DNA of 64,000 nt from the IMG/VR virus record IMGVR_UViG_2898799289_000011. One strand, given 5' to 3'. Every line of letters begins with the position of its first letter. Position 1 is the first letter of the stretch. The notes under the pieces were generated by a model. That model did no database searches. It was not told the DNA's origin and saw nothing but the letters and a program-made list of their open reading frames with translations. This DNA comes from an uncultured virus (IMG/VR IMGVR_UViG_2898799289_000011). Its lineage: Duplodnaviria; Heunggongvirae; Uroviricota; Caudoviricetes. Positions 9,370 to 58,543 of this stretch are shown here, in pieces. A program made the position numbers and the translations under genes.

Positions 9370-9392
9370 AAAATTGTCCGCCGGACAGTTTT
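9370..9392. promoter_or_regulatory. Inverted repeat AAAATTGTCCG-C-CGGACAGTTTT (operator-like)
   Basis: 11-bp arms with one mismatch, directly after the putative regulator. Confidence 0.45.
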
Positions 9393-40600: not shown

Positions 40601-40710
40601 TCATGGTCGATGATCTGGTCCGACGGGCGCGACAACAGTCGGTTGAGCAGGGTCTGCCTGGACCGGAAATCCAGGGTCACCCCATCCGTGTCGTAGGAGA
40701 GCTGGATCAT
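37603..40710 (-). CDS. zorD: SNF2-family helicase, ZorD-like
   Basis: ADEQGLGKT, FDEIQ, TGTPIEN, WWNPAVEEQCNDRVHRIGQ; fourth gene of the operon. Confidence 0.8.
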   Translation of the reverse strand: MIQLSYDTDGVTLDFRSRQTLLNRLLSRPSDQIIDHDQHLSFALADLRSTAEEAGDEVEIGGSRIRMTHRTLGGLSSETAEALGLPPLIDLTLRTDVSGLLGSPEFRLTHEWVRAGRRELVQRTGAIAQTSGTGSDGLRRLPRWMLDALEVADRFQSGSDLDAHWEALARFRRALEPGVRMSGKDAEARLGMTDFLSGLEVTLTDRFSISPKGDDQFAIIPFSGEAVDTAASEGAPISEREAELNGGRLDTFQNLAFSRGARPAYKLGAQNYLVVDPSAAPVLKVMTEMQQADPVTRAAFMRNPRQRITDAVTEHLRSKGRLEGLSPAAEQELIEKAAEPAFVETVEYSEYSDRVIGITVYAKPEIQITGSGTTWLPEAFTGAAAQRIEAMPPDQVEQLIGEVERAMAVGAPTVDVGGAEIPATQTTRVALEQRLETLKGRGEADPVLGPDEPVEQQVGPIIVDTADNLSELRWAARVKPRTRLAPDSLPEVVQADLKGHQLDSFRWKLDAWAAGMPGVLNADEQGLGKTLQAIAFLAWMKENMTRAEGGRTGPVLVVAPTSLLENWELEVDKHLRAPALGNVIRLYGSALGGKKKPGPQGVETESGNAILDLSDLHEAIAEGRGHRYWVLTTYTTLTNYQHSLAKIPFSTAVFDEIQNVKNPTTLSAKAAMALNADFRIGLTGTPIENSTVDLWAIMEQITPGRLGSLSDFRARFGEAAEGNMRELYSLVFEPQDGLPPVALRRLKEEVAKDLPAKGRRIHPRLMPEVQAATYEEARRKLSSGTRGAALKMLHHIRSVSVHPNAEAAAEDAAYVAMSARLQASIDILRGVRDRGERALVFIEHIKMQHRFIELVKREFRLPRVDLINGSTPIPRRQEIVTRFQRHLKRDEGFEVLVLGPKAAGTGLTLTAATHVIHLSRWWNPAVEEQCNDRVHRIGQTRPVTVHVPMAIHPGYQHNSFDCLLHSLMTRKRRLASSALWPMGDTEEDASRLQQMLADGASTQTGDPIHAAMTMMFRRDDMTLPQSNPDGSIPYA

Positions 40711-43918: not shown

Positions 43919-43920
43919 GA

Positions 43921-45969
43921 TCAGCGCCTCGACTCAGGAAGGAACTTCTCGGCCCGGTCCACGATCTCGTGCATCTTGTCGATCGCCGGGGCGAGTTCCC
44001 CGTTCATGGTGCGAACGTGCCCGAACAGGGTGTCCACGGCGGTCCGGACGTGCTTAGTGAACTCCTCAAAGGCGGACCCGAGTTTTTCGTCCATGTCGTC
44101 GATCTGCTCGCGCTGGCGCTCGATCTGGGTCAGCGCTTCCCCCAGCTTCGCAAGGGTCGCCTCGAGGAGCTTCTGCTCCGCGCCAAGGGCCGACTTCGCC
44201 GCGTCGAGGATCCGCACGGCCCCCTCAGCTGTCTCCCGGGCGCTCCGGGTGACCGTGTCCGCGGCCCGCTCCGTGCTTTTCGAGAGGCCAGCCACTGCCG
44301 TCTCGATCTGTTCCACGCTGCCCCGGATAGGTCCGGCCGCGGCCGCAAGCTCACGCGAAGCGGCTGTGACGGTCTGGGCCGCGTCACGGGTCGCCTCCCC
44401 TCCGGCCCGGATGTTCCCGGCCGCGGTCGCGATCTGCCCGGAGCCGTCCTTCAGGCGGGTCGCCATCTGGTCCAGCTGCTCCACAACCTCGCTGATCGGG
44501 TCGACCAGGTCTTGACGCAGCTTGTCCCCGAAGGACCCGGTGGCGCTCAGGAGGTCCGCCCCGCTACGAGAGACCGCCTCGACCAGCTCCTTACCAGCCA
44601 GGCTCACGGCGCCGCTGACCTCCACCCCGGCCGTCTCCATCCTGGACCGGACCGCAGCGGAGCCGGATTCGGCCGCCGCCTCAAGCCGCTCCTTGAAGCT
44701 GTCCGCGGACGTCCGCATCGCGTCGGCCGCCTCCCGAAGCGCGTCCGCCCCCTCGGACGTGTTGCGCCGGATCCCCTCGAGCGTCTCGTTCATGATGCCG
44801 AGGAGCCTCTCGGCGCCCGCGTTCAGCGTCCCGTCCGTCGTTTCCGCGGCGGAGGCGAGGCGAGCCGTCAGGTCCTCTGCGGCCCGGGCGAGCCGGGCGA
44901 CGGAATTCTCCATCTCCTCGCCCATTCGGCCGGAGCTCTGGTCCATCCGGTCCGAGAGGCGGGCGATCTTCTCGCCGGCCGCTGAGAGCTGGGTGCTCGC
45001 CTCGGAGAGCGCCCGTCCGACGTCGTCGGAGAACCGGGATGACAGGTCGTTCACCATTTGCCCGACTCCGTCGGCGCCAGCCTTCCCGACCCGATCGAGA
45101 AGCGGTGCCATCGCGGCCCCGATCGAGGAGGCGATAGATTCTGGGATCTCCTTGCGCAGCGGCTCGCCGAGCTTCTCGACCAGCTCAAGCCCGATCCGCT
45201 TGAAATTGTCCTCCTGACCGCGGGCGATCGCCAGCTGTTTGAGGGCGACGCCCTCGAGGCTGACGAAGCTGAGGCGCTCCTCGAGGCGCGCACACAGCAG
45301 ATGGATTGATCGTTCGATCCGGCCCATGGAGACCCGGAGTGTGATCGTGAACAGGATGGACGCCAAGAGGCCGGTCAAGGACATGATGAACTTGGCGGAC
45401 GCCGCCCCGAGCAGGTCGTTCAGCGCGCCCCTCATCTCTTCCGGCGTCGCCTCAATGCTGAGACCGCTCCCGATCGCCTGCAACGCAGAAATGAGCCCGA
45501 GGAAGGTGAGCAGGAGGCCGACGGACACGAAAAGGCCCGGCAGGTGGCGATGAAACCCCGGACCATAATGGAGGTCTTCCAGATTGAAGAAGCCGGAAGG
45601 ACGAACGCTATTGCGCAGGACTGGCGGGGTGACTGTTTCGTCAAGAACTAGCGTCTCACGGAACTCCGACCAGGCAGCGGTGATGTGGACATACCCTTTC
45701 AATGTGCGACGAGTCTTTACCTCGGAATCGATACGCGGGGACTGGGCGGTGAAGTCCTCTTCGTTCGCTGTTTTCTTGATAAGCTCGTCTAGCCAGCGCA
45801 GGGTGGTGAGCTTCCGGCGGGTCGTTAGGACCACCATGGCCAAAGACAGGACCAGCCAGCAAAGGATCAGAATGGAGATCCAGCCGGGCATTTGCTCCTG
45901 GGTTAGGAACGAGGAGACCCAGAAAATGAACTGGGACATGCTCGTCCCGATACCGCCGATAAACTCCAA
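43921..45969 (-). CDS. zorA: MotA-like membrane protein with long helical tail, ZorA-like
   Basis: Three TMs incl. PGLFVSVGLLLTFLGL and AKFIMSLTGL; long Ala-rich coiled-coil tail. Confidence 0.85.
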   Translation of the reverse strand: MEFIGGIGTSMSQFIFWVSSFLTQEQMPGWISILILCWLVLSLAMVVLTTRRKLTTLRWLDELIKKTANEEDFTAQSPRIDSEVKTRRTLKGYVHITAAWSEFRETLVLDETVTPPVLRNSVRPSGFFNLEDLHYGPGFHRHLPGLFVSVGLLLTFLGLISALQAIGSGLSIEATPEEMRGALNDLLGAASAKFIMSLTGLLASILFTITLRVSMGRIERSIHLLCARLEERLSFVSLEGVALKQLAIARGQEDNFKRIGLELVEKLGEPLRKEIPESIASSIGAAMAPLLDRVGKAGADGVGQMVNDLSSRFSDDVGRALSEASTQLSAAGEKIARLSDRMDQSSGRMGEEMENSVARLARAAEDLTARLASAAETTDGTLNAGAERLLGIMNETLEGIRRNTSEGADALREAADAMRTSADSFKERLEAAAESGSAAVRSRMETAGVEVSGAVSLAGKELVEAVSRSGADLLSATGSFGDKLRQDLVDPISEVVEQLDQMATRLKDGSGQIATAAGNIRAGGEATRDAAQTVTAASRELAAAAGPIRGSVEQIETAVAGLSKSTERAADTVTRSARETAEGAVRILDAAKSALGAEQKLLEATLAKLGEALTQIERQREQIDDMDEKLGSAFEEFTKHVRTAVDTLFGHVRTMNGELAPAIDKMHEIVDRAEKFLPESRR

Positions 45970-47443: not shown

Positions 47444-48598
47444 TTATCCCAAGGATTGCCGCAGGTTCTGCGCGACGGCGTCAGCCGCCATCCGCACTGG
47501 TTCCGCCGCGAGATGGGCGTACCGCGCCGTGGTCTGGACCTGCGTGTGGCCAAGGAGCTTGCCGATCATCGGCAGGCCCTGACCCGACGCGACGGCCGTC
47601 GACGCGAAGGTGTGGCGCAGGTCGTGGATGCGGACGTCCTTGACCCCGGCACGGGCACGGACGCGCTGCCAGAATGGTTGCAGATCACTCAGCGGTTTGC
47701 CGGGCAGGGTGCCAGTAATTACCCACGGGTTGCCGTCGACGCGCTGGGCGCCCCGCAGCAGGTCTGCCACCGGCTGGCCGACGTGGCCGACCTTCGCCCC
47801 AGTCTTGGAATCCGGCAGGCGCAGGGCAGGGACGTCAAGATCGACATAGGACCACTTCAAGGACATGATCTCGTTCAGGCGGCATCCGGTCAGGATCAGC
47901 AGGCGGGCGGCGAGGATTGCCGAGGGCAGTTCCACCCCTTCCGCTTCCATTTCGCGCAGCACCTCGCCGATCCGGCGCAGCTCGGCCGCGCTCAGGAAGC
48001 GTTCGCGCTTTTCCTCGGGGTATTTCCGGATGTGCTTGCGCGGGTTGGTCCCGTCCGGACGCAGTCCCCACATCTCGGACAGGCTGAACATCTTCGAGAT
48101 CACCTCGAGGCAGCGGTTGGCCTGATAGGGGATGTGCCGCAGGTCGTGGTGGAACTTTGCGACATCCGCCCGTGTGACCCCCGTGACCGTCAGTTGTCCC
48201 AGTGCGGGCAGGATGAAGCGCTGCAGGTTCCGGCGATACTCCTTTCCCGTGCTGGCCTTCACGCGGATGGCGATGTGTTCCTTGTCGAACCTCTCGGCCA
48301 GTTCCTTGATCGTGATCGCCTTGCGCCCTGCGTCGCGTTCCGCAGCAGGGTCCTGCCCGTTGCGCGCAGCGGCCACGATGGTGATGGCGCGGGTGCGCGC
48401 CTGCTCGCAGGTCAGCACGGTGCTGGGCCCCAGGCTGATCCGCCGCGACCGGCGTCCGGCGCGGTATTGCACGACGTAGCCTTTGCGCCCGCTTGGCAGC
48501 ACCCGAAGTCCGAAGCCGGGGATGTCGCTGTCCCAGACGAAGTATTCGGCGGCTTGGGCTTCTGCGGCGTCGACGATGCGCTTTGTGAGTTTGGGCAT
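47444..48598 (-). CDS. Tyrosine integrase with arm-binding N-domain
   Basis: WDSDIPGFGLRV; TGCRLNEI, DSKTG, HDLRH, LLGH, TARYAH. Confidence 0.93.
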   Translation of the reverse strand: MPKLTKRIVDAAEAQAAEYFVWDSDIPGFGLRVLPSGRKGYVVQYRAGRRSRRISLGPSTVLTCEQARTRAITIVAAARNGQDPAAERDAGRKAITIKELAERFDKEHIAIRVKASTGKEYRRNLQRFILPALGQLTVTGVTRADVAKFHHDLRHIPYQANRCLEVISKMFSLSEMWGLRPDGTNPRKHIRKYPEEKRERFLSAAELRRIGEVLREMEAEGVELPSAILAARLLILTGCRLNEIMSLKWSYVDLDVPALRLPDSKTGAKVGHVGQPVADLLRGAQRVDGNPWVITGTLPGKPLSDLQPFWQRVRARAGVKDVRIHDLRHTFASTAVASGQGLPMIGKLLGHTQVQTTARYAHLAAEPVRMAADAVAQNLRQSLG

Positions 48599-48814
48599 GG
48601 GAGTGGCTTCCGGGTTCTCTGGCTTCCACAGTGCGCAATGCGGATGCATAGTCAACGAACACATTGATATTGCGTATAAAAAGGAAATTCCGCGCAATTT
48701 CACGCAGGGGCTGCTTCGCAGTCGTGAGCGGAAACGATGGCCCGCACGAATCAGAACGCAGGTTCCGGTCACCCATTCGCGCTGCTAAGGTCCGCGAAAA
48801 GAAACGGAATCCCG

Positions 48815-50254
48815 ATGGCGTCGAAATCCACCCTCAATGCGAAGAACCTGGAGGCGCTGGGCGCTGAGCGTCTGGCGCAGCTGCTGATCGAGATCAGCAC
48901 CGGCGATGCCGCAGCCAAGCGCAAGCTACGGCTGGCTCTCGCCGGAGCGGAGGGCCCGAGGGAGGCGGCGCGGGAGATCACCAAGCGGCTGGCCAGCATC
49001 GCAAAGGCCCGGACCTTCGTGAACTGGCAGAACCGCAAGCCTCTTGTGAAGGATCTTCAGACCCAGCGCAGCGCCATCATGGAACAGATTGCCCCGCATG
49101 ATCCGGGTGAGGCGCTGGCGCTCTTGTGGCGGTTCATGGGACTGGCCACGCCGGTGTTTGAACGCTGCGACGACAGCAGCGGCACCGTCATCGACATCTT
49201 CCACCAGGCCTGCGCCGATCTGGGCGAGGTGGCCAAGGCGGTTGATGCGGCGCCGGAGGCGCTGGCGCGACAGGTTCTCGATGCGCTGCAGGACAACGGG
49301 TTTGGCCAGTACGACGGGCTGATCGCCATCATCGCCCCGGCGCTGGGCCCGGAGGGCGTCGCGCATCTGAAGACACTGGTCGATGAACTTGGCCGCACGC
49401 CCGTGCCGGTACCGCCAAAGAGCGAATGGCAGGCGGTCGGCTGGGGTAGCGGCGGCACGCGCTATGCCCACGAGATGGAGGAACGCGCGCGGCAGAGCAC
49501 GGTCGAGATGGCGCTGAAGGACATCGCCGACGTGCAGGGCGACGTCGATGGCTTCATCGCCCAGTACGACCCGAAGACCCGCAAGGTGCCGAAGATCGCG
49601 GCCGAGATCGCGCAGCGCCTGCTGGCGGCGGGCAGGGCGGGGGACGCGCTTGGCTTCATCGAGCGGGCGGAGGTGAAAGATGCGCGCTGGATCCCGCCCG
49701 AATGGCAGGACGCCCGACTTGCCGTGCTGGAGGCGCTTGACCGGAAGGATGAGGCGCAGGCGTTCCGCTGGGCATGTTTCGAGCGCGACCTGTCGGGTGA
49801 GCACCTTCGGGCCTATCTGAAGCGACTGCCGGATTTTGAAGACATCGAGGGCGAAGAGCGTGCGATGGCGCATGCCGCTGGCCATCCCGACCTGCTGACC
49901 GCCCTGGCCTTCTTTCTGAACTGGCCATCGCTTGCCCATGCCGCGCAACTGTTGATCGACCGACAGGACGAGGTCGATGGCGATCACTACGAATTCCTGG
50001 CACCAGCGGCCGAGACATTGGCCGAAAGGCAGCCACTGGCCGCAACGGTGGCGCTGCGGGCGATGATCGATTTCACGCTGATCCAAGGGAGGCAGAAGCG
50101 CTATGGCTATGCCGCCCAGCACCTGGCCGCCTGTGCCGACCTAGCCGGACGGATCGAGGACTTCGGACCGGTCGAGCCGCATCACGTCTATGCCGCGCGC
50201 CTGAAGGCCGAGCATGGCAAGAAGACCGGCTTCTGGTCGCGGATGGACGGATGA
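48815..50254 (+). CDS. Helical hypothetical protein (DUF6880-like)
   Basis: LEALGAERLAQLL, CDDSSG, HGKKTGFW. Confidence 0.7.
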   Translation: MASKSTLNAKNLEALGAERLAQLLIEISTGDAAAKRKLRLALAGAEGPREAAREITKRLASIAKARTFVNWQNRKPLVKDLQTQRSAIMEQIAPHDPGEALALLWRFMGLATPVFERCDDSSGTVIDIFHQACADLGEVAKAVDAAPEALARQVLDALQDNGFGQYDGLIAIIAPALGPEGVAHLKTLVDELGRTPVPVPPKSEWQAVGWGSGGTRYAHEMEERARQSTVEMALKDIADVQGDVDGFIAQYDPKTRKVPKIAAEIAQRLLAAGRAGDALGFIERAEVKDARWIPPEWQDARLAVLEALDRKDEAQAFRWACFERDLSGEHLRAYLKRLPDFEDIEGEERAMAHAAGHPDLLTALAFFLNWPSLAHAAQLLIDRQDEVDGDHYEFLAPAAETLAERQPLAATVALRAMIDFTLIQGRQKRYGYAAQHLAACADLAGRIEDFGPVEPHHVYAARLKAEHGKKTGFWSRMDG

Positions 50255-50439
50255 TGGACGTGCTACCGGAAAATCATTCCGCGACCCAATGGAAGCATGG
50301 TGGAAGCACGAGGGGAAAAACCGCTGCGCAATCCTGACAATCCGCGCGCAGTCGGAGCTTGTGGGCCCATCTCGCAACTGGCAGGATATGCGAAGGAAAA
50401 CGCGATTCGTCGCGCTTGTTCGTGTTTCGTTTGACACGA

Positions 50440-50484
50440 CTCATAACCTGAAGGTCGTAGGTTCAAATCCTACCCCCGCAACCA
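50440..50484 (+). other. att core: 3' half of tRNA-Met(CAT), not a full tRNA
   Basis: CTCATAACCTGAAGGTCGTAGGTTCAAATCCTACCCCCGCAACCA (anticodon loop, T-arm, CCA); 5' half absent. Confidence 0.9.
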
Positions 50485-50510
50485 GAAAATCCCGCGTTAT
50501 CAAACGCTTG

Positions 50511-50540
50511 AACGCCGCCCTCCGGGGCGGCGTTTGCGTT
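50511..50540 (+). terminator. Intrinsic terminator-like hairpin after the tRNA fragment
   Basis: AACGCCGCCC-TCCG-GGGCGGCGTT then TGCGTT. Confidence 0.65.
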
Positions 50541-50670
50541 TGTACGGGCCGTGGAAGCACTGTGGAAGCAAGAGGGGCCGAAGTCCTTCATATACCTGCG
50601 AAGGCAATGGCCCGGTTCTTGTCGTAGCTGTCGCGCGCGGGTGCTACGACTTGGCCCACTCCCTTAGGCC

Positions 50671-51594
50671 CTACCGAAGCCGTTCGAGCAAAGCCTCGAC
50701 CATTTCCTGGTTTGAGTTCGCGATCACGTCGAGTGGGCGGTGCTCCTGCCGCATGAGCGCGATCAGGAGACAGGCTGTGAACAGCCAAAAGGGCGAACCG
50801 GCACGAAGGCTGTAGCCGCTGATCATCGCCGTCAACCGCTCGGCCATCGGGGGATATTTCCGATTACCCCAATGGGCGTGGGTCGGCGTCATCGCATGGA
50901 TGATCACGGCCGCGAGCGCTATCCCCATGGCACGCTTTTGCTGGACTTCGGCGAAGTTATGCCCGTGCTTCTTTGCATAGGCCGCAAGGCCGCTCGTCAT
51001 GAAGTCGCGGGCATAGGTGTCGCAGGCGATTTCCTCCTCGGGCAGCGCCGATGGGGCACTGTTGTCGGCGCAGTACATGACGTGCTGGAATTCGTGTAGA
51101 AACGAGAATGCCAGGGCAAACGCCACAAGATCGAACGCCGCCATGTGCTGGACGTCGCCCAGACTTTCACGATCGGAAGTTGGCTCGGGGATATCCGCTG
51201 GCCAAGAGATTTCGGTGGTCTGATCGGCTAAAATAAGAGATTGGGCGCTGGCGATGCGTTGCTTGTAGTCGAGCTCGAACGGACCCCGCTTGGTGTCGGC
51301 GTTGAGCGCCTGGTCGAGCGGTATTCCGGTTATCGTCGCGAGAACCAGCGCGGGTGAATAGACCTCGATGGCGCGCCAGGCGTTGAAACCGAACAACCAG
51401 AAGAGGTCGATCGTCTTGGTGTCAAACTGGATGCGCTTGGCGTCGGCGTTCATGGTGACGCCCTTGGTGCTCGGCGCGACTTCAACGGCATGGCCGTACT
51501 GGCTCCAGAGGCTGCTGATTTCGTCGGCGCGCTCAGGCACGGCGCCGCGAAGGAGATTCAGAATAATTGTGCGGTTGGACGGCTCGGTCGTCAT
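50671..51594 (-). CDS. Lit-family (peptidase U49) phage exclusion protease
   Basis: WPADIPEP, AAFDL, LHEFQH (HExxH), EEIACD. Confidence 0.75.
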   Translation of the reverse strand: MTTEPSNRTIILNLLRGAVPERADEISSLWSQYGHAVEVAPSTKGVTMNADAKRIQFDTKTIDLFWLFGFNAWRAIEVYSPALVLATITGIPLDQALNADTKRGPFELDYKQRIASAQSLILADQTTEISWPADIPEPTSDRESLGDVQHMAAFDLVAFALAFSFLHEFQHVMYCADNSAPSALPEEEIACDTYARDFMTSGLAAYAKKHGHNFAEVQQKRAMGIALAAVIIHAMTPTHAHWGNRKYPPMAERLTAMISGYSLRAGSPFWLFTACLLIALMRQEHRPLDVIANSNQEMVEALLERLR

Positions 51595-51637
51595 GCCTGT
51601 GGCTTCTCCAAGTGAGGGAATTGGGCGGGCGATCCGA

Positions 51638-53053
51638 TCATGACGGGTCGCTTTCTGCATGCGCGTCGCCCGTCGCCTGGCCTTCGCCAGTCATATGCAG
51701 ACGGGTCACCGAGGAGAGGACCGAGTTCGCCCAGATCGTGCTGCACACGATTTCGCCGTCACGCTCGAACCAATGGGTCGCGCCCGGGATGAGGTCGAAC
51801 GGGATAGGGTGGGTGGCCAGCGGATTATGGAACACCTCCAACTCCTGGCACCAGGCTTCGCCCCAAGGCCAGAGCGCCTGATATTCGTCGCTGGCGACCG
51901 ACAACTTGAAGTCGATGGGCTCCAGCGCGCCCGGAGTTCGGTCGAAGAGGATGCCGCTTCGGATCATGGTCAGCCCGGGAGGGCGCCAGCCGGCAAGGAA
52001 GCCCATCCGGTTGAACTTGGCGAGCGTTGCCGCATTGCTGAAGATGACGGCCGACAGGTGGGCGAAGTCGGGATCGCGGAAGAGCCCCGCCGGTATGCCG
52101 TGCTTGCCCGTCAGGTTGGTGATCGGCGTCGCGACAGCGCGGCGCTCTTTGCCTACTCCTTCGATATCGGCGCGCAGCCCGTAGAGGTAAGTCGGCAGGG
52201 CCTCGCGGCTCCAGACCATCGAACCGGATTGGTGGAAGTCTGCCAATGCGAGAGCGAAGGACTGGCCCTTCACGTGGTCCATCGCATGATAGTTGCGCTG
52301 GAGCTTGCCCCGCAGCGTCTTGGCGAAGCGCTCGGCCGGACCTCCTGTCAGGCGCTCGTTGCGATCCTCAGGCGCATGTACCCAGTCGCCGATCCCGCCG
52401 GCGCGTGGGGTCTCGGAGTTCGCCGTCACCGCCTCGATCCAGCACGTGTCACCGTTCTTCTCGATGAAGAAGTCGGGCGAGACATGATCTTGACGGACGC
52501 TCAGGCCCTGCTCGCGAAAGCAGGCGATAAGGTAGAGTTCGAACAGCCGGGACGCGAAGTTGCTGGTCTGAAAATCCGGGACAAAATTGGCGTCAGGATT
52601 GGGAAGCGCGAGATAGCATTCGCCGATCGCCATGAGCGCCGGCAGATGGCTGATCGTGGTCGTCAACAGATCGAATTCCGGCGATGTCCCGCTAGCTCCC
52701 GGCTTCACCAAGAGCGGGCGGCGCCTGGCCCCCGGCGGCAATGGCTCCGGCGGATCGCCGGCGCGCATGGCAATGCTGAGACCGTCGAGCGCGGCTTCGG
52801 GGGTGGAATAGGGGCCGCCTTCGTCGACCTTGATCCAGCAGTGATCGACACGCCGGCGCAAGGCGATGCTGGTGAAGGTTCTTTGCTCCGAATCAAGAAG
52901 GATGCAGCCGCTCGCGCTGCCCCGTCCGGCCTGATAGGCGCTGAAGATATGGGCGGGGTCGAAGTCTGGCCCGCGTTCGAGCGACAGCGCATAGAGTTCG
53001 AACTGGCGCTGGCTGATCGGGGTGATCAGCCGTGGCTCATCGGCTGGGGCCAT
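51638..53053 (-). CDS. Restriction-endonuclease-like protein with extra N-terminal domain
   Basis: LFELY..SPDFFI..WIEA..HNPLA; GAGG RBS. Confidence 0.6.
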   Translation of the reverse strand: MAPADEPRLITPISQRQFELYALSLERGPDFDPAHIFSAYQAGRGSASGCILLDSEQRTFTSIALRRRVDHCWIKVDEGGPYSTPEAALDGLSIAMRAGDPPEPLPPGARRRPLLVKPGASGTSPEFDLLTTTISHLPALMAIGECYLALPNPDANFVPDFQTSNFASRLFELYLIACFREQGLSVRQDHVSPDFFIEKNGDTCWIEAVTANSETPRAGGIGDWVHAPEDRNERLTGGPAERFAKTLRGKLQRNYHAMDHVKGQSFALALADFHQSGSMVWSREALPTYLYGLRADIEGVGKERRAVATPITNLTGKHGIPAGLFRDPDFAHLSAVIFSNAATLAKFNRMGFLAGWRPPGLTMIRSGILFDRTPGALEPIDFKLSVASDEYQALWPWGEAWCQELEVFHNPLATHPIPFDLIPGATHWFERDGEIVCSTIWANSVLSSVTRLHMTGEGQATGDAHAESDPS

Positions 53054-53104
53054 GGCCGACCTCATCTTCCTGCGGGCGTCTGACACACGCATCCGATTCC
53101 ATCG

Positions 53105-54031
53105 TCATGACGCCTCCGCTGCGGCCGCCGAGGCGAGGATATCGCTGGCTTCCCATCCCTCGCCCTTCCGGGTTGTCACGAACTCACGGTCCCAGACGCC
53201 CCAGTTTGTGGGCAATGGAATCTGCGCCAGCGGATTATGGACATAGGTGATTGGCCGGACCTGGCGCGAGAGGTTGCCGAGGCCGACCCGTGACCAGATC
53301 ACGCCCGAGATGTCGGCAAAGCGCTCGTCGAGGAAGGCCGTGCGCGGGATCGGATTGCGCTCGCGGTAGATCAAGGGCGCGGCGTGAAACCCTTCTTCGA
53401 GGACATCGCCGGTGTCGCGGTCGATGGTGATGAAGGCGTCGCCGATCGGGAATAGGGTCGTCATGATGAGCGGCAAAGGCTGTTCGGCGACATAGACGCC
53501 GAAGCGGCTGGCGCTGATAGCGATGATGCGGGTGTCATCGGGCGCGATCATGCCCTGCTCGATGTAGCGGACGATCTTCTGCGCCTTTGTCCAGAACGCG
53601 CTGGAGATCCGAAGCTGCGCCTGGCGGATCGGCGCGGCGACAAGGCCACCGCCTTCATTGATCGCCACGGGGCGCACGATCTGGTCAGGCCCTGGAGCGC
53701 CTTCGTCGGGGCAGATGGCCTCAATCCAGATGCGGCGATCTCCTTCGAGGACACACAGGTCCGGCTGGCCGCCTTCGCGCTGACGGTCGACGACGGGCAA
53801 CAGAGTCCGCCCCGCCTCGAGCAGCGTGCAGCCCAGATACATTTCCCAGAAGCGCCCATCGACGTCGCGCGCGAAGCCCTGCCGAAAGTCCGGATCGGCA
53901 TAAGGCTCGTAGCGCGCCCACATCTCCTGCAGCATGGCGTGAAGCTGCTGCTCAATCGGGCTTTCCGCGATCTTCAGGTTCTCGAAGGCAAGATCGAGAC
54001 TAGCGCCGTTAATTTCGAAAAGGTCGCTCAT
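53105..54031 (-). CDS. Restriction-endonuclease-like protein (paralog of its neighbour)
   Basis: FWEMY..QPDLCV..WIEA..HNPLA. Confidence 0.6.
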   Translation of the reverse strand: MSDLFEINGASLDLAFENLKIAESPIEQQLHAMLQEMWARYEPYADPDFRQGFARDVDGRFWEMYLGCTLLEAGRTLLPVVDRQREGGQPDLCVLEGDRRIWIEAICPDEGAPGPDQIVRPVAINEGGGLVAAPIRQAQLRISSAFWTKAQKIVRYIEQGMIAPDDTRIIAISASRFGVYVAEQPLPLIMTTLFPIGDAFITIDRDTGDVLEEGFHAAPLIYRERNPIPRTAFLDERFADISGVIWSRVGLGNLSRQVRPITYVHNPLAQIPLPTNWGVWDREFVTTRKGEGWEASDILASAAAAEAS

Positions 54032-54150
54032 TGAATTCTTGTCCCCTGTGCTCGCTAGACTTGCATCTGCATTGCACTGCAAATCGTCCTATTCGAAATA
54101 CTCACCTTTTCATGCAATTGGAGCGGGGCTTCAGCTGTCAGATCCATACA

Positions 54151-55323
54151 TCAAAGTGGCTCCGTCCCTCGACTGAGAATGCCAAGGTAGTCGCTGTAGA
54201 CATACATCCGGCCACGCTGCTTGCCCGTCACCTCCCGCACGATGCCGAGATCCTCCAGATGCTGGATCGACTTCGCAATCGTCGGGGGCGAGATGCTCAG
54301 CCGCTGCGCAGCCGCGGGAATGCCGATGATTGGCTTCTGCTGAAGCAGCTGGTGCACCCGGAGGGCGGATGCGGCCGGGCGCCCGAGATCCTCGATCCGG
54401 TGGCGATCGGCTTCGAACAGCGCGAGGATCTCGCGCGCCGCCTCTGATGCCTGCAGAGACGTCTCGGCGATGCCGTCGAGGAAGAACTCCAGCCATGTCT
54501 CCCAGTCGCCGTTCTCACGGACCTGCTGCAGCAGGTCGTAGTACTGGCGGCGATGCGTCTTGAAGTAGAGGCTGAGATAAAGGATCGGCTCCTTCAGGAT
54601 CCCCTGCGTGCAGAGCAGGAAGGTGATCAGCAGGCGGCCGAGACGGCCGTTCCCATCGAGAAACGGATGAATGGTCTCGAACTGCACATGGACCAGTCCG
54701 GCCTTGATGAGGGTCGGCATCTCCGGTGCGTCGGTATGGATGAACGCTTCCAGGTCCGACATCAGGTCGAGGACGTGCTCAGGCGGTGGCGGGACGAATA
54801 GCGCATTGCCTGGTCGCGTTCCGCCGATCCAGTTCTGGGAGCGCCGGAACTCCCCCGGCTGCTTCGTGCTCCCGCGTCCCTTTTCAAGAAGGATGGCGTG
54901 GATCTCCCGGATCAGGCGCAGGGAGAGCGGAAAGCCTTCGCGGATCCTCTCGAGGCCATGGTTCATGGCGGCGACGTAGTTGGAAACCTCCTGCACGTCG
55001 TCGAGCGGGACGCCCGGCGCTTCCTCGCTCTCGAAGAGCAGCAGGTCGGATAAGGACGACTGCGTGCCCTCGATCTGCGAGGACAGCAGCGCCTCCTTGC
55101 GAACGTACATGTAGAGGAAGAGCGGTGTGTCGGGGAGGATGGAGGTCACGCCATCGAGCCGGCCGATTGCGCGGTTCGCGTGCTCGAGCTGCCGATAGAG
55201 TCGGTCCATCCTGACTGGAGGGGCAGGCGGCAACGGAGGAGGCACGAATGCCTCTGCGCGTTCGCCCGCCGTCGAGATGGCAACGCGTTGACCCAAGCGT
55301 GATGGCTCCGGTGTTAACGCCAT
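54151..55323 (-). CDS. Fic-family protein (class II-like, C-terminal wHTH)
   Basis: HPFLDGNGRLGR; inhibitory motif SSQIEG. Confidence 0.92.
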   Translation of the reverse strand: MALTPEPSRLGQRVAISTAGERAEAFVPPPLPPAPPVRMDRLYRQLEHANRAIGRLDGVTSILPDTPLFLYMYVRKEALLSSQIEGTQSSLSDLLLFESEEAPGVPLDDVQEVSNYVAAMNHGLERIREGFPLSLRLIREIHAILLEKGRGSTKQPGEFRRSQNWIGGTRPGNALFVPPPPEHVLDLMSDLEAFIHTDAPEMPTLIKAGLVHVQFETIHPFLDGNGRLGRLLITFLLCTQGILKEPILYLSLYFKTHRRQYYDLLQQVRENGDWETWLEFFLDGIAETSLQASEAAREILALFEADRHRIEDLGRPAASALRVHQLLQQKPIIGIPAAAQRLSISPPTIAKSIQHLEDLGIVREVTGKQRGRMYVYSDYLGILSRGTEPL

Positions 55324-55485: not shown

Positions 55486-56271
55486 ATGGGACACCAGCGC
55501 CTCGGCAAACTCCCCACCCACCGATACCTGCCGGACATCGTCAGGTATCTGGTGACCGGTGGCGCACCCACCGCGCCGCTGGTGGAACAGGTGACCGAAG
55601 TCAGTCGGGACGCGCTGAAGCGCGCGCTGAGGGACCCTGTCTTCGTGGAAGCGCTGTGGCTGCTCATCAGGTTGCCGCAGGCCGCTGCGTCGAAGGATTT
55701 CGGGGCGGCGCTCGCTGAGATTGGCATGGGAGCGCATCCGCCGACTTCGGGTGCCGAGCTGCTGGTGGCCTACAACAATGCATTGGAGCGCGTGCAAAGG
55801 CGTGCCCATGCGGGATCAACGGACCTTGGCGACATCGCCCGCCAGGCGGGAGCTGCCGCGCTGGCCGAGGCCGTGGAGGCGGGCATGCCGATGTGGTCCC
55901 CAACCGCTGCCGATGTGCAGGCTTCGGTGGCGGCGCTGAGGTCACCGGAGAAATTCGGCGCCCTGGCCCACCATTTCCACGCGAATATAGTGGAACGCGT
56001 CATCCACTATTACGTCGATCGAAACTTGCACAAGCTCGTTGGCGCCGATCGCGTCGCGCGGTCTGTCCATGATCTCGCGACCTACAACTCCGCGATACGC
56101 CGTCACTGCATCGAGGCTGCGCTGATCATGCGCGCCTTCGCCCGGGACTGGCTTGGCAAGAACCAGTACCGGGACGGCAAGGACATATCGAGGGATGATG
56201 CCCGCCGCTTCTCGGCCTTCGCCGTTGAGAAGATTGGTAACGAACTCAAGAACAGGAAGAGGTCAAATTGA
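55486..56271 (+). CDS. Helical protein starting Met-Gly; QatB-like partner candidate
   Basis: MGHQRLGKLP; TTGA overlap with the QueC-like gene. Confidence 0.7.
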   Translation: MGHQRLGKLPTHRYLPDIVRYLVTGGAPTAPLVEQVTEVSRDALKRALRDPVFVEALWLLIRLPQAAASKDFGAALAEIGMGAHPPTSGAELLVAYNNALERVQRRAHAGSTDLGDIARQAGAAALAEAVEAGMPMWSPTAADVQASVAALRSPEKFGALAHHFHANIVERVIHYYVDRNLHKLVGADRVARSVHDLATYNSAIRRHCIEAALIMRAFARDWLGKNQYRDGKDISRDDARRFSAFAVEKIGNELKNRKRSN

Positions 56272-58130
56272 AACGGTGCCTGATCGAATGCGGCGTGCCG
56301 CAGGCATCCGAGGCTGATGCGCTCGCGATGAACGTCAGCGAGCCGGGCAAGAACGTCAATCTGAGGATCGACTACATCAGCCGCTCGATGATCGGAAACA
56401 TTCCCGACCTGTTGATCGACCTCCTCGAAGTGGCAGCCTATGTGTACTGCGCCGATCAGCGCATTGCACGTGGGTCCGCCATGCTCACGAACTTCGGGGA
56501 AGACTGGCGCCGCAGTCTGACCTTCTCGATTCCCGTACGTCACCCTGAGGTCTGGCAGCGTGCAGATGTGCAGGAGCTCCTCATCGATACGCTCGGGTTC
56601 CTGTCCGACGACAGCTATGAGTTCAGTTTCCGCAAGGCGGAAGCGCCGGTGCAGCCGCGAGAGCTGTATTTTCCGGAGCTTCTCGACGCCTTCCAGGAAA
56701 ACGATGAGGTGGCGCTCTTCTCCGGGGGTGTCGATTCTTTTGCCGGCGCCGTCAACGACATCGTCACTCTCGGCAAGTCAGTAACCCTCGTCGGCCATTA
56801 CTCGTCAACGAAAGTACGAAACGTTCAGGAAGAGCTCATCCGCGATCTGAGACAGCGCGGGTATGAAAGGCGGGTCTCCTACGTTCCCGTCTGGGTCTCG
56901 AATGAGGTCGCCAAGCCCGTCGAGTTCACGCAGCGGACCCGCTCGTTCCTGTTTGCCTGTCTCGGTCTCGTCGTGGCGCAGATGTCGGGCAAAAACGGGT
57001 TCAGCTTCTATGAGAATGGGGTTGTCAGCATCAACCCGCCCCTGGCGGGCGACGTGGTCGGCGGCCGGGCAACGCGTACGACGCATCCCAAGGTTCTCCG
57101 CGGGTTGGAGGCGCTGTTCTCGACCCTGCTCGACAGTGAGATTGAGATCCGCACTCCGCTTCAATGGCTGACCAAGAAAGAGGTCACACAGAAGATCGCC
57201 GATGCGGGCGTTGCAGACATGCTTGCCGCCACGGTGAGTTGCACGCGACCGCGCAGCTGGACGGTCAAGCAGAAGCACTGCGGGCTCTGTTCGCAGTGCA
57301 TCGATAGGAGGTTTGCCATCTTGGCTGCAGGACTGGAAAAGTTTGAACCGTCGCAGAACTACAAGCGCGACCTCCTCCTCGGGGATCGCAGCGCCGACGA
57401 TGAGTTGCGAATGGCTCTGAGCTATGTCGCGTTCTTTCGAGACGTCGCCGCGATGCCGAAGGCGCGTTTTCTTTCTGGGTTCCAGCAGGTCATTTCCGCG
57501 CTCGATCACTTTCCTGATCTGTCTGTCGACGAGGCAGGATCACGCCTGTTCGAGTTGTTTCAGCGGCATGCGCGCTCGGTAGAAGAAGTCATTGCCAGGG
57601 CGCTTATCGAGCATGGCGACAGGCTTTACAGGGGCGAGGTTCCGTCTGGTTCGCTTCTGGCGACTTGCTTCACTCGAGACCATGTCGAGATCGCGCCGGA
57701 GTCCGACTATGATCGGCAGGCCACCGATTTCGTCGACAAGCTCAGTGCCCCCATTCTCGAGTTCGCGGTGGATCACGATGCCGAGCAGGTGCTCTTCCAT
57801 GGCGGGCATCTTCTCGAAGGTGCGAACTACCGCTTCGTGAACGCGCTGATCGAGAATTTTCGGAAGGCCAAGCGGACGCGCTCGGAGGTCCAGTTCATGC
57901 CACCTCATGATGTGGCGGACAAAATCGGCATATCCGAGCAGTCGATGCGCCAGCAACTGCGCAGGTTGCGAGACGCGCTCGACCCGCTGGCGGTGATGCT
58001 CGGGATCCCGCTGGATCAGGACAGTTTCATCGAGACCAAGGATCGCGCTGGCTACCGCCTCAACCCGGCATGCCGTGAGATCGCCCTCGGCGACATTCAT
58101 CCCCCGAATCCGGCTGCGTCACAGGAATAA
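56268..58130 (+). CDS. QueC/QatC-like PP-loop enzyme fused to a C-terminal winged-helix domain
   Basis: FSGGVDS, QRTRSFLF, ENG, TRTTHP, VSC..HCGLCSQC; tail DVADKIGISEQSMRQQLRRLR..IETKDRAGYRLN. Confidence 0.8.
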   Translation: MKRCLIECGVPQASEADALAMNVSEPGKNVNLRIDYISRSMIGNIPDLLIDLLEVAAYVYCADQRIARGSAMLTNFGEDWRRSLTFSIPVRHPEVWQRADVQELLIDTLGFLSDDSYEFSFRKAEAPVQPRELYFPELLDAFQENDEVALFSGGVDSFAGAVNDIVTLGKSVTLVGHYSSTKVRNVQEELIRDLRQRGYERRVSYVPVWVSNEVAKPVEFTQRTRSFLFACLGLVVAQMSGKNGFSFYENGVVSINPPLAGDVVGGRATRTTHPKVLRGLEALFSTLLDSEIEIRTPLQWLTKKEVTQKIADAGVADMLAATVSCTRPRSWTVKQKHCGLCSQCIDRRFAILAAGLEKFEPSQNYKRDLLLGDRSADDELRMALSYVAFFRDVAAMPKARFLSGFQQVISALDHFPDLSVDEAGSRLFELFQRHARSVEEVIARALIEHGDRLYRGEVPSGSLLATCFTRDHVEIAPESDYDRQATDFVDKLSAPILEFAVDHDAEQVLFHGGHLLEGANYRFVNALIENFRKAKRTRSEVQFMPPHDVADKIGISEQSMRQQLRRLRDALDPLAVMLGIPLDQDSFIETKDRAGYRLNPACREIALGDIHPPNPAASQE

Positions 58131-58221
58131 CGACCCGACGTCACAGGCCGCCGCGCACAACGTCACAATCTGCCAAGCGAAGCCCCGTTTTTCGGGGCTT
58201 TTTTCTTGTCTGCACGTCACA
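58117..58221 (+). promoter_or_regulatory. Four CGTCACA direct repeats
   Basis: Starts at 58117, 58139, 58161 (22-bp period) and 58215. Confidence 0.6.
58180..58204 (+). terminator. Intrinsic terminator
   Basis: AAGCCCCG-TTTTT-CGGGGCTT-TTTT. Confidence 0.75.
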
Positions 58222-58333
58222 AGAAAGTCCGGGCGTGATCATTTATTCGAGGCCGCAAAACACTGAAATTGTTCGCATATCCGGGCGCATCAACGCGCCG
58301 GGGTGAACAACGGACAACTCAGTGAGGTTTCGG

Positions 58334-58543
58334 ATGTCAGTCACGCATCTCAACCAGGTCGAGCTGGCGGCTCGATGGAAGATCAGCCCGCGCACGCTGG
58401 AGCGCTGGCGTTGGACCGGTGAGGGCCCCGCCTTCATCAAGATCGGAGGCCGGGTCGTGTACCGGCTCGAGGATGTCGAGGCCTACGAGGCCAACCGGCA
58501 CTGTTCGAGCACGGCCGACAAGCCCGCCGTGAAGCTGGCGTGA
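58334..58543 (+). CDS. Small HTH DNA-binding protein (excisionase-like)
   Basis: Paralog of 1-204; GAGG RBS. Confidence 0.85.
   Translation: MSVTHLNQVELAARWKISPRTLERWRWTGEGPAFIKIGGRVVYRLEDVEAYEANRHCSSTADKPAVKLA

What the first reader, a model, noticed from the sequence alone, without database searches (positions are those of the whole stretch)
55486..58333. QueC/QatC-like enzyme fused to a winged helix, with a Met-Gly partner and phased operator repeats upstream of the phage early operon
Seen: a coupled two-gene unit. The first gene is a helical protein starting MGHQRLG. The second is a PP-loop/Zn enzyme (SGGVDS, TRTTHP, CGLCSQC) with an extra C-terminal region of about 150 aa ending in an OmpR-like wHTH. 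No qatA (KAP NTPase), qatD (TatD) or CBASS genes are adjacent. Directly downstream lie CGTCACA repeats, a terminator and the element's xis/replication operon. Known: the QueC homologues Cap9 (type IV CBASS) and QatC attach a deazaguanine to the N-terminal Gly of a partner protein. Inference: a stand-alone protein-deazaguanylation module is wired to a DNA-binding output. It could be a modification-controlled switch for prophage induction, or a minimal defence system.
Basis: partly seen in the sequence, partly recalled or inferred. Interest (0 to 1): 0.85.

Follow-up and report, generated by a model that had tools for sequence, protein, structure and literature searches.

The report
Prophage QatBC enzyme fused to DNA-binding domain
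A prophage carries a two-gene relative of the QatB/QatC anti-phage pair whose enzyme has gained a DNA-binding domain and always sits next to a conserved array of short repeats on the prophage's early promoter, which suggests that a protein-modifying enzyme is wired directly to a phage gene switch.

Summary
55486-56271 encodes a helical protein (MGHQRLG...) that folds like QatB. 56268-58130 encodes a QatC-like PP-loop/Zn enzyme with an extra C-terminal OmpR/PhoB-type winged helix. No qatA or qatD gene is adjacent. Four GTCACA direct repeats (22, 22 and 54 bp apart), a terminator and an HTH_17/replication operon follow.

Comparison with other loci adds three points:
- The pair is conserved in hundreds of alphaproteobacterial genomes and in 143 viral contigs. 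Met-Gly-His is nearly invariant at the partner's start.
- The repeat array travels with the winged helix. It is present in 52 of 59 genome loci and 52 of 58 viral loci, against 2 of 4066 control windows. It is absent from 29 related HTH_17 operons that lack the gene. Relatives with a different C-terminus carry different repeats.
- The last repeat occupies the -35 slot of the early promoter. The pair usually lies between the integrase and the early operon, where immunity regions lie.

Best reading: a natural QatBC-only variant whose enzyme-substrate complex is tethered to, and gates, the prophage early promoter. DNA binding, the modification and the direction of control are all untested. I rate it a new variant of a known kind and of high interest.

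The parts
55486..56271 (+). QatB-like partner gene (261 aa, all-helical, N-terminus MGHQRLGKLP)
56268..58130 (+). QatC-like PP-loop/Zn enzyme with C-terminal winged helix (620 aa). Its TTG start overlaps the partner's stop by 4 nt.
   Evidence: The 4-nt overlap is found in 37 of the 42 loci whose alignment starts at residue 1.
56721..56738 (+). PP-loop SGGVDS (aa 152-157)
   Evidence: Read from the translation. S152, G153, G154, D156 and S157 are invariant in 22 homologues.
57072..57089 (+). TRTTHP (aa 269-274), the QatC-type Thr-x-Thr substrate-site motif
   Evidence: Aligned to 'trtthp' of solved QatC 9zee_B. Invariant in 22 homologues. The role of the two threonines comes from PMC13279940.
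57240..57299 (+). Zinc-site cysteines C325, C338, C341 and C344 (…HCGLCSQCIDRR…)
   Evidence: Invariant columns. The motif is as described for QatC in PMC13329287.
57753..58070 (+). OmpR/PhoB-type winged helix-turn-helix domain (aa 496-601; wing motif GYRLNP)
58118..58123 (+). GTCACA repeat R1 (inside the last codons of the enzyme gene)
58140..58145 (+). GTCACA repeat R2 (22 bp after R1)
   Evidence: The position, about +9 after the stop codon, is conserved across loci.
58162..58167 (+). GTCACA repeat R3 (22 bp after R2)
   Evidence: The position, about +31 after the stop codon, is conserved.
58179..58207 (+). Intrinsic terminator (9-bp stem, 6 G-C pairs, then a T run) ending the partner-enzyme transcript
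   Evidence: A hairpin followed by a T run stands at the same place in most loci (read by eye).
58216..58221 (+). GTCACA repeat R4 (54 bp after R3), in the -35 position of the early promoter
   Evidence: Invariant in 24 of 24 aligned loci. It lies 17 nt upstream of the -10-like hexamer.
58236..58244 (+). Extended -10-like element TGaTCATTT (consensus cTGAtCATAT)
   Evidence: Columns G26, A30 and T31 are invariant, and T25, A32 and T33 are at least 90% conserved, in alignment A4. That the -10 consensus of alphaproteobacteria resembles CTATAT is recalled, not taken from a call.
58250..58333 (+). Leader of the early operon, with a conserved GTTGAAAAT-like box and an inverted repeat (58281-58302)
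   Evidence: Alignment A4. As RNA it folds at -34.6 kcal/mol, z -4.48. RNAalifold found no consensus structure on this alignment.
58334..58543 (+). First gene of the early operon: HTH_17 (excisionase/AlpA-like) protein. The ATG at 58334 aligns with the homologues' start. The ORF listing gives the GTG at 58322.
   Evidence: Pfam HTH_17 E 1.5e-10. PHROG 66, excisionase and transcriptional regulator. Start codon from alignment A4.

Best explanation
This is a prophage-borne, natural two-gene variant of the QatB/QatC anti-phage core.

Shown by fold and conservation:
- The upstream protein is a QatB-type substrate whose initiator Met is followed by an invariant Gly.
- The downstream protein is a QatC-type ATP-dependent PP-loop enzyme that has gained a C-terminal OmpR/PhoB-type winged helix.

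Inferred:
- The winged helix binds the array of GTCACA direct repeats. The array begins in the last codons of its own gene, spans the terminator and ends on the -35 position of the promoter of the prophage's early (HTH_17/replication) operon.
- Several bulky enzyme-partner complexes sit two helical turns apart on one face of the DNA and gate that promoter.
- I favour repression in the lysogen, because the pair lies where immunity regions lie, between the integrase and the early operon.
- Modification of the partner's Gly2 by the enzyme domain would be the event that changes promoter occupancy and so switches the early operon.

Binding, chemistry and the sign of regulation are untested.
For: Identity of the two proteins:
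- Enzyme.
- All QatC signature residues are invariant (read against PMC13329287 and PMC13279940).

Conservation of the pair:
- 2621 proteins at E <= 0.001 among 8000 scored.
- 514 of 599 matched genome stretches encode a relative, as do 143 of 204 viral-contig stretches.
- The partner is adjacent in 76 of 80 genome loci. In a 77th (L053) it lies rearranged on the other strand, and the other three are cut by contig ends.
- A start codon followed by Gly is found in 74 of 76 genome loci and 67 of 67 viral loci.

Repeats go with the winged helix:
- At least 2 GTCACA within -30..+130 of the stop codon in 52 of 59 full-length genome loci, against 2 of 4066 control windows, and in 52 of 58 viral loci.
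- No locus with a different C-terminus has two: 0 of 8 and 0 of 18. Some of these carry other direct repeats 20-21 bp apart at the same place.
- Of 29 loci with a related HTH_17 gene (44-76% identical) but no QatC-like gene, 0 have two repeats within 330 nt upstream. One of the 29, L097, lies in the unpublished genome G040.
- The sister prophage in the same contig has an HTH_17 protein about 77% identical and no repeats.
- The repeats occur beside a tyrosine integrase (window) and beside serine recombinases (20 of 34 sampled loci). They are therefore not integrase arm sites.

Promoter geometry: GTCACA is invariant in 24 of 24 aligned loci and stands 17 nt before a conserved TGn+hexamer.

Slot:
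- A recombinase gene lies within 3 kb upstream in 23 of 34 sampled loci.
- HTH_17 lies within 400 nt downstream in 57 of 58 viral loci.
- The sister prophage has a CI-like S24 repressor in that slot.
- No Peptidase_S24 was found in 5 of 5 provirus records that carry the pair.
Against: - There are no binding, modification or expression data.
- The complex predictor was not available, so entry of Gly2 into the active site is unverified.
- The partner's tail before its first modelled helix is only about 8-14 residues. About 63 residues are unresolved in P. aeruginosa QatB (PMC13279940).
- No residue-level covariation was resolved between the recognition helix and repeat variants. The link holds only at the level of domain type.
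- 7 of 59 genome loci and 6 of 58 viral loci lack two repeats.
- The pair is co-directional with the early operon and separated from it by a terminator. A classical cI/cro pair is divergent.
- Other repressors may exist. Locus L038 has a Peptidase_M78+HTH_3 gene next to the pair. One of 5 proviruses has an HTH_3 hit over the cut-off. Those provirus records are only 68-83% complete.
- An OmpR-type domain at -35 can equally activate.
Confidence: 0.5

Rival explanations
1. Same wiring, opposite sign. The tethered complex is a PhoB-like activator. When the QatBC part senses an infecting phage, or another trigger, it switches the early operon on. The outcome would be prophage escape or an abortive response.
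For: - OmpR/PhoB-family domains that bind direct repeats reaching the -35 position typically activate promoters with a weak -35. This is established knowledge of PhoB, OmpR and ToxR, recalled and not taken from a call.
- GTCACA matches TTGACA at only 4 of 6 positions (read).
- The other sites lie upstream of the promoter, at about -89, -111 and -133, as in activator arrays.
- Canonical QatBC is an infection-responsive defence core (PMC13279940).
Against: - The promoter has a conserved TGn extended -10, which as a rule lessens the need for a -35 contact or an activator (recalled).
- This reading needs a separate repressor, and none was identified between integrase and early operon in most sampled loci.
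- There are no data on the sign of regulation.
Confidence: 0.2
2. An ordinary defence moron. It is a minimal QatBC system carried by the prophage for superinfection exclusion. The winged helix serves only the system itself, for example by insulating it from the early operon or by localising it on DNA. It does not control the prophage's early operon.
For: - QatBC alone defends E. coli against lambda-vir (PMC13279940).
- In the window the pair sits at the edge of a defence island: SoFic, two PD-T7-1-like genes, Peptidase_U49 and Zorya.
- PHROGs files the enzyme's QueC part under 'moron, auxiliary metabolic gene and host takeover'.
Against: - The neighbours upstream are variable. Fic is adjacent in only 17 of 66 loci.
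- The pair, the repeats and the HTH_17 junction are constant.
- The last repeat is invariant and sits exactly on the -35 slot of the next operon.
- No GTCACA lies upstream of the pair's own start: the only six copies in the window are the four repeats and two distant ones. Autoregulation through this motif is therefore unlikely.
Confidence: 0.2
3. The repeats belong to something else, such as operators of another regulator or origin or packaging iterons. The winged helix binds elsewhere or does not bind DNA.
For: - No direct evidence links the domain to the repeats.
- Pfam's Trans_reg_C model is matched only below threshold: best E 0.0072, in 9 of 28 members.
Against: - The repeats are absent from 29 of 29 related HTH_17 loci that lack the gene.
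- They do not depend on the integrase type.
- Relatives with another C-terminal domain carry other repeats at the same spot.
- The repeats are direct, as expected for OmpR/PhoB-type domains (recalled).
Confidence: 0.1

Closest known systems
QatB-QatC core of the qatABCD anti-phage system (structures 9y01/9y02, 9zee, 9vlk)
   Same: - The enzyme has the QatC N- and C-terminal extensions, the PP-loop, the Thr-x-Thr site and the Cys4 zinc site.
- The partner has the QatB fold and an N-terminal Met-Gly.
- The genes are adjacent and translationally coupled.
- QatBC alone is a functional unit (PMC13279940).
   Different: - No qatA or qatD gene is adjacent.
- The enzyme carries about 150 extra residues ending in an OmpR/PhoB winged helix. 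Canonical QatC showed no DNA binding in EMSA (PMC13376578).
- The partner starts MGH(Q/V/I)RLG rather than MGTS, and its tail is about 8-14 residues instead of 30-90.
- The partner shows no detectable sequence similarity to QatB.
- The enzyme scores below NCBIfam's QatC cut-off (210.9 against 280 bits).
- The pair has a fixed place beside a prophage early promoter, with its own repeat array.
Cap9-CD-NTase pair of type IV CBASS (9nto)
   Different: - There is no CD-NTase and no signalling or effector genes.
- The active-site motifs are of the QatC type, not the Cap9/QueC type.
- The enzyme is fused to a DNA-binding domain.
OmpR/PhoB-family DNA-binding domains, including one-component members ToxR, TcpP and CadC
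   Same: Same fold. The candidate sites are direct repeats that reach the -35 region, as at PhoB- and OmpR-controlled promoters (recalled).
   Different: - There is no receiver domain and no membrane anchor. The input domain is a QatC-type enzyme with a protein substrate.
- The sites are 22 bp apart rather than about 11 (the figure for PhoB/OmpR is recalled).
- Pfam Trans_reg_C is not reached at threshold.
Phage immunity regions (CI-type repressor between integrase and early operon)
   Same: - The position is the same. The pair lies between the recombinase and the early operon.
- The sister prophage in the same contig has a CI-like HTH_3+S24 repressor in that slot.
   Different: - There is no HTH_3 or S24 domain.
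- The pair is co-directional with the early operon and ends in a terminator.
- The sites are direct repeats, not palindromic operators.
- The likeness is functional and rests on position only.

Membership tests
QatC (NCBIfam NF041925; PADLOC PDLC02214) | PP-loop SGGxDS ATP-binding motif | tested here: met
   SGGVDS at aa 152-157; invariant in 22 homologues.
QatC (NCBIfam NF041925; PADLOC PDLC02214) | QatC-specific motifs: D..R..WxR, RxRxxxF, Thr-x-Thr+HP, P(x)4TK, and the Cys4 site with CGxCxxC..RR (as listed in PMC13329287 and PMC13279940) | tested here: met
   D63, R68, W80, R82; R223, R225, F229; T269, T271, H273, P274; P297, T302, K303; C325, C338, C341, C344; R347, R348. All are invariant columns.
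QatC (NCBIfam NF041925; PADLOC PDLC02214) | Fold with the QatC N- and C-terminal extensions around the QueC core | tested here: met
   Foldseek 9y01_B: E 1.4e-19, 472 alignment columns, TM 0.72 on the 428-residue target.
QatC (NCBIfam NF041925; PADLOC PDLC02214) | Score above the curated equivalog cut-off | tested here: not met
   210.9 bits against a cut-off of 280. PADLOC's model matches at E 9.1e-57.
qatABCD system | Operon with qatA (KAP NTPase) and qatD (TatD nuclease) | tested here: not met
   No KAP_NTPase or TatD among the window ORFs scanned. Of 34 sampled related loci, only L056 has a KAP_NTPase next to the pair.
QatC (enzyme activity) | ATP-dependent modification of the partner's N-terminal glycine | not testable with these tools
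The test needs mass spectrometry.
QatB | Globular ten-helix QatB fold | tested here: met
QatB | Conserved N-terminal Met-Gly (MGTS in canonical QatB) | tested here: met
   M1 and G2 invariant in 31 of 31. Start codon plus Gly in 74 of 76 genome loci and 67 of 67 viral loci. The motif here is MGH(Q/V/I)RLG, not MGTS.
QatB | Long disordered N-terminal tail (30-90 residues) that reaches the QatC active site | tested here: not met
   The first helix starts at residue 15 and the alignment to QatB starts at model residue 9, against chain residue 64. Residues 1-40 have a mean pLDDT of 44-69 per block of ten, so their conformation is uncertain.
QatB | Sequence similarity to QatB | tested here: inconclusive
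   No QatB hit in PADLOC at E <= 0.1. No hit against PDB chains with the single sequence or with a 31-sequence profile.
OmpR/PhoB winged helix (Pfam Trans_reg_C, PF00486) | Beta-sheet, three helices and a C-terminal beta-hairpin wing | tested here: met
OmpR/PhoB winged helix (Pfam Trans_reg_C, PF00486) | Pfam model matched at its gathering threshold | tested here: not met
   Trans_reg_C is the commonest family among 28 C-terminal domains (9 of 28), but its best E-value is 0.0072. The window's own domain does not list it at E <= 1.
Two-component response regulator | N-terminal receiver domain | tested here: not met
   No Response_reg hit. The N-terminal 470 residues are the QatC-like enzyme.
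CI/LexA-type phage repressor | HTH_3-type DNA-binding domain and S24 autopeptidase | tested here: not met
   Neither domain is found in either protein. The likeness rests on position only.

The most novel reading that the evidence does not exclude
A large family of alphaproteobacterial temperate phages has replaced the CI-type immunity repressor by an enzyme-substrate pair. The QatC-winged-helix/QatB complex sits on the GTCACA array and holds the early promoter. Covalent nucleobase conjugation to the partner's N-terminal glycine is the signal that flips the lysis-lysogeny switch. This would be a transcription switch operated by protein deazaguanylation.
Probability: 0.3. Interest if true: 0.9.

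Novelty: new variant of a known kind. Interest (0 to 1): 0.78.

Why it matters
What QatBC does after the partner is modified is an open question. Three 2026 structural papers could not reconstitute the reaction or name an output (PMC13279940 Results and Discussion; abstracts of PMC13376578 and PMC13639016).

This natural variant offers a readable output: a DNA-binding domain, a defined repeat array and a promoter. The effect of the enzyme, of Gly2 and of ATP binding can therefore be read by EMSA and by a reporter.

If the tethered complex does gate the early operon, it would be the first case of a QueC-family protein-modifying enzyme acting as a transcription factor. It would also be a new kind of prophage switch, or of infection-triggered induction. 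The family is common: 514 genome stretches and 143 viral contigs. Relatives with other DNA-binding ends exist, for example Sigma70_r4_2 in L069.

I found no description in print. The searches were 'QatC/QatB' (97 papers hold a term, 20 listed), 'QueC + winged helix + prophage' (4 papers, none relevant) and 'QatC + transcription + DNA-binding domain + lysogeny'. Term searches inside three Qat/QueC papers for HTH, winged, prophage and fusion found nothing relevant. The neighbourhood table of PMC13329287 (Supplementary Table S2) could not be read and may list this context.

Tried and rejected
- Sequence searches of the partner against Pfam, NCBIfam, PHROGs and PDB found nothing, with the single sequence or with a profile. 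PADLOC gave no QatB hit, only a marginal unrelated one (Cas12u1, E 0.0009).
- Residue-level covariation between the recognition helix and the repeat sequence: the GTCAC core is kept under nearly all helix variants. The variants are single cases: LRHQV with TGTCAT and MRTQL with GTAACA.
- Fic as a third component: rejected. It is adjacent in only 17 of 66 loci, and there it is 88-98% identical while the enzyme is 71-77% identical. It looks like a swapped cassette.
- Homology between the winged helix and proteins in the same slot of QatC-less prophages: not significant. These were the 254-aa ORF of the sister prophage (BLASTP E 2.8; hhalign probability 1%), the L091 response regulator and the L086 ORF.
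- Rfam scan of 58050-58450: only sub-threshold hits, asX2 at 32.4 bits against 70 and BcKCsr2 at 14.9 bits against 40.
- RNAalifold on the promoter and leader alignment: no consensus structure.
- Isolated phages (INPHARED): no full-length relative. Two Listeria phage records match the core at 29% identity.
- Expression: contigs from four metatranscriptome studies hold 90-97% identical relatives. One 2805-nt contig spans 55711-58511. Contigs in RNA libraries do not prove transcription and give no ends.
- Earlier notes of this scan: none for this genome.
Full report
**What is there.** Two + strand ORFs fill the finding. ORF 55486-56271 encodes 261 aa beginning MGHQRLGKLP. ORF 56268-58130 encodes 620 aa and starts at a TTG that overlaps the first gene's stop by 4 nt. 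The second protein matches PADLOC's QatC model (E 9.1e-57, residues 47-357). It matches NCBIfam's QatC equivalog at 210.9 bits, below the 280-bit cut-off. It matches solved QatC chains 9zee_B (E 1.2e-32) and 9vlk_A (E 6.5e-30). Pfam sees only the C-terminal part of a QueC domain (E 9.6e-09). The first protein has no hit in Pfam or NCBIfam, in PHROGs or in PDB sequences. PADLOC gives it only a marginal, unrelated hit (Cas12u1, E 0.0009).

**Folds.**
- An AlphaFold2 model of the enzyme, built on 22 homologues, has mean pLDDT 83.9. It matches the QatC chain of the QatBC crystal structure: 9y01_B, Foldseek E 1.4e-19, 472 columns, TM 0.72 on the target.
- At sequence level this domain is only faintly Trans_reg_C-like: 9 of 28 diverse members match, best E 0.0072, all below threshold.
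- The pair is therefore a QatB/QatC pair by fold, with an added winged helix.
- All residues that the literature gives as QatC signatures are invariant in 22 homologues. These are the PP-loop, D63, the Thr-x-Thr-His-Pro site, P(x)4TK and the Cys4 site with CGxCxxC..RR. The motif definitions come from PMC13329287 section 7 and PMC13279940 Results.

**Surroundings in the window**.
- The window holds two related prophages in tandem. The first has an early operon at 201-11141 and structural genes at 14567-37476.
- Next come a type I Zorya set (37606-45969, - strand), a WYL gene and a tyrosine integrase (47447-48772, - strand).
- Then come DUF6880, a Peptidase_U49 gene, two PD-T7-1-like genes and a SoFic-like Fic gene (54151-55320, - strand).
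- The QatBC-like pair follows, and then the second prophage's early operon from 58334 (HTH_17, AAA_24, DUF669, PD-(D/E)XK, helicase).
- No KAP NTPase or TatD gene is adjacent.
- The genome has one copy of the enzyme gene. It also has a canonical QueC next to QueD elsewhere.

**The pair is a conserved unit.**
- The protein search found 2621 relatives at E <= 0.001 among 8000 scored candidates. The best 120 are 549-631 aa long and 56-97% identical.
- In one genome per species, 514 of 599 matched stretches encode a relative, and I kept the best 80.
- A homologue of the partner lies directly upstream on the same strand in 76 of the 80. In one locus (L053) it is rearranged onto the other strand. 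In the other three the contig ends within 75 nt.
- The partner starts with ATG, GTG or TTG followed by Gly in 74 of 76. The two exceptions, L035 and L052, align only from residue 15 or 17. Residue 3 is His in 73 of 76.
- In a 31-sequence alignment reaching down to 24% identity, M1 and G2 are invariant, and H3, R5, L6, G7 and P10 are at least 90% conserved.
- The 4-nt overlap between the two genes is kept in 37 of the 42 loci whose enzyme alignment starts at residue 1.
- In IMG/VR, 143 of 204 matched stretches encode a relative. In 67 of 67 loci with at least 800 nt upstream, the partner aligns from residue 1 and has Gly at position 2.

**The repeats belong to the winged helix.**
- In the window, GTCACA stands at 58118, 58140, 58162 and 58216, that is 22, 22 and 54 bp apart. 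The terminator (58179-58201) lies between the third and fourth copies. The phased pattern is not expected by chance: no shuffle of 100 gives two matches.
- Among the genome loci with a full-length enzyme, a GYR[LI] wing and at least 130 nt downstream, 52 of 59 have two or more GTCACA within -30..+130 of the stop codon. Only 2 of 4066 control windows of the same size from the same loci do.
- Adjacent copies are 21-22 bp apart (34 pairs) or 53-55 bp apart (44 pairs), out of 91 pairs.
- The viral contigs repeat the result: 52 of 58.
- Thirteen of the 80 genome loci were left out of these counts. Their gene is truncated or too little sequence follows it (listed).
- Relatives whose C-terminus lacks the wing have no such array: 0 of 8 genome loci and 0 of 18 viral loci have two copies.
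- Several of these relatives carry other direct repeats just after the stop codon. L073 has two 17-nt copies 20 bp apart. L074 and L077 have two 18-21-nt copies 21 bp apart.
- One relative, L069, ends in a Sigma70_r4_2 helix-turn-helix (34.7 bits, above the 25.7 cut-off).
- The repeats do not follow the downstream gene. In 300 further alphaproteobacterial genomes sampled (301 searched with the window's own), 29 loci with an HTH_17 homologue (44-76% identical) but no QatC-like gene were examined. None has two GTCACA in the 330 nt upstream, and two have one. One of the 29, L097, comes from the unpublished genome G040.
- The sister prophage in the same contig is a natural control. Its HTH_17 protein is about 77% identical, yet it has no repeats nearby.
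- The repeats do not follow the integrase either. The window has a tyrosine integrase, whereas 20 of 34 sampled loci have a large serine recombinase.

**Promoter and slot.**
- In an alignment of 24 loci, the last GTCACA is invariant. After 17 nt comes a conserved cTGAtCATAT, which is TGATCATTT in the window at 58236-58244. This has the layout of an extended -10 promoter with the repeat in the -35 position.
- That alphaproteobacterial -10 elements resemble CTATAT is my recollection, not a call result. The simple sigma-70 scan did not list this site.
- A conserved leader follows the promoter. It has a GTTGAAAAT-like box and an inverted repeat, then the ribosome-binding site and the ATG at 58334.
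- Upstream of the pair the neighbours vary. Fic is adjacent in 17 of 66 loci.
- A recombinase gene lies within 3 kb upstream in 23 of 34 sampled loci (20 serine, 3 tyrosine). A divergent block of a small ORF, DUF2924 and a serine recombinase recurs in about 30 loci.
- HTH_17 lies within 400 nt downstream in 57 of 58 viral loci. By tblastn it is downstream in 60 of 80 genome loci.
- The pair thus occupies the junction between the integration genes and the early operon. In the sister prophage that junction holds a CI-like HTH_3+Peptidase_S24 repressor (PHROG 4). Several QatC-less relatives have S24 or Cro/CI-type genes there.
- Five provirus records that carry the pair (40-49 kb, 68-83% complete) have no Peptidase_S24 match. 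Only one has an HTH_3 match over the cut-off.
- Against a sole-repressor reading: L038 has a Peptidase_M78+HTH_3 gene next to the pair, and the provirus records are incomplete.

**How it most likely works.**
- Shown: the identities of the two proteins by fold, the invariance of Gly2 and of the catalytic motifs, the co-occurrence of the wing-type domain with the GTCACA array, and the array's position on the next promoter.
- From the literature, on canonical QatBC:
  - It forms a tight 1:1 complex.
  - The QatB N-terminus lies in the QatC active site.
  - Gly2 and catalysis are required for defence.
  - QatBC alone can defend.
  - The downstream effect is unknown (PMC13279940).
  - An NDG-modified QatB N-terminal peptide was detected at low level (PMC13639016 section 9).
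  - Canonical QatC does not bind DNA (PMC13376578, passages).
- Inferred: the winged helix binds the repeats, one bulky enzyme-partner complex per site, two helical turns apart. Occupancy of the site at -35 controls the early operon. The modification state of the partner changes that occupancy.
- I favour repression in the lysogen because of the slot. Activation in the PhoB manner is the main rival.
- A plain defence moron remains possible. It does not explain why the array is constant while the upstream cargo varies, nor why no GTCACA lies upstream of the pair's own start.

**Limits.**
- No binding, chemistry or phenotype is known.
- The complex could not be predicted.
- The partner's tail is much shorter than QatB's.
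- No residue-level covariation was found.
- RNA-library contigs that hold relatives of the locus do not show transcription.

**Novelty.** The kind of system, QatBC, is known. Three things appear undescribed in the literature I could search: the fusion to an OmpR-type domain, the cognate repeat array on a prophage early promoter, and the fixed place in the immunity slot. The supplementary neighbourhood table of PMC13329287 could not be read. That paper notes that only about a third of QatC-cluster genes have qatA or qatD nearby. This leaves room for the present family among the rest.

Noticed in passing
window 37606-45969 (- strand): A four-gene set with the domain order of type I Zorya: a long coiled-coil protein (43924-45969), an OmpA-domain protein (42839-43918), an EH_Signature protein (40710-42839) and a SNF2 helicase (37606-40710). 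That this order equals ZorABCD is recalled.
   Followed up: no
window 47447-55320: A defence-rich cargo region lies between a tyrosine integrase (47447-48772) and the pair. It holds DUF6880 (48737-50251), a Peptidase_U49 (Lit-like) gene (50674-51660), a PD-T7-1 homologue (51638-53092, E 6.5e-85), a weaker PD-T7-1/5-like gene (53105-54082) and a SoFic-like Fic protein with a C-terminal HTH_24 (54151-55320, E 4.9e-126).
   Followed up: partly
L082 (own contig, 9110-10986) and window 201-11141: A second, related prophage lies just upstream in the same contig. In the slot held here by the pair it has a CI-like HTH_3+Peptidase_S24 repressor (- strand). It also has a 254-aa + strand ORF of no known family that ends ...NGRGAYRLAGI. 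No GTCACA repeats are nearby.
   Followed up: partly
window 58250-58333: The leader of the early operon has a conserved GTTGAAAAT-like box and an inverted repeat (58281-58302) whose arms differ between loci but stay complementary. As RNA it folds at -34.6 kcal/mol, z -4.48, and pairs the region of the ribosome-binding site. It could be an RNA element or an operator for the HTH_17 protein. RNAalifold found nothing on this alignment.
   Followed up: partly
L069:6739-7638; L073-L079: QatC-like enzymes with other C-terminal ends exist. L069 has a Sigma70_r4_2 helix-turn-helix. The 659-674-aa forms end ...KRKNVRDAFRNAV...; some of these (L073, L074, L077) are followed by their own direct repeats 20-21 bp apart. 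DNA-binding ends may have been added to this enzyme more than once.
   Followed up: partly
L056:3718-5070 (- strand): One related locus has a KAP_NTPase gene (E 1.4e-29) divergent from the pair, beside an AbiEi/AbiEii pair. It may be a link to the four-gene qatABCD layout.
   Followed up: no
L091:39-1357: In a QatC-less relative, the slot upstream of HTH_17 holds a histidine-kinase fragment and a 258-aa response regulator on the same strand. No similarity to the winged helix studied here was detected.
   Followed up: partly
about 28-30 genome loci, e.g. L017:2962-4990, L018:2986-5008: A recurrent divergent block sits next to the pair. It consists of a small conserved ORF (72-114 aa...ERRAELCGLLALGLVRL...), DUF2924 and a large serine recombinase. 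The small ORF has no assigned function and could be a further regulator.
   Followed up: no
window 56268: Some database entries start the enzyme at an internal Met, giving the 600-aa forms. The 20 residues upstream are conserved at protein level (MK..(I/V)ECG; C8 and G9 at least 90% conserved). This supports the longer form with the TTG start that overlaps the partner's stop.
   Followed up: yes
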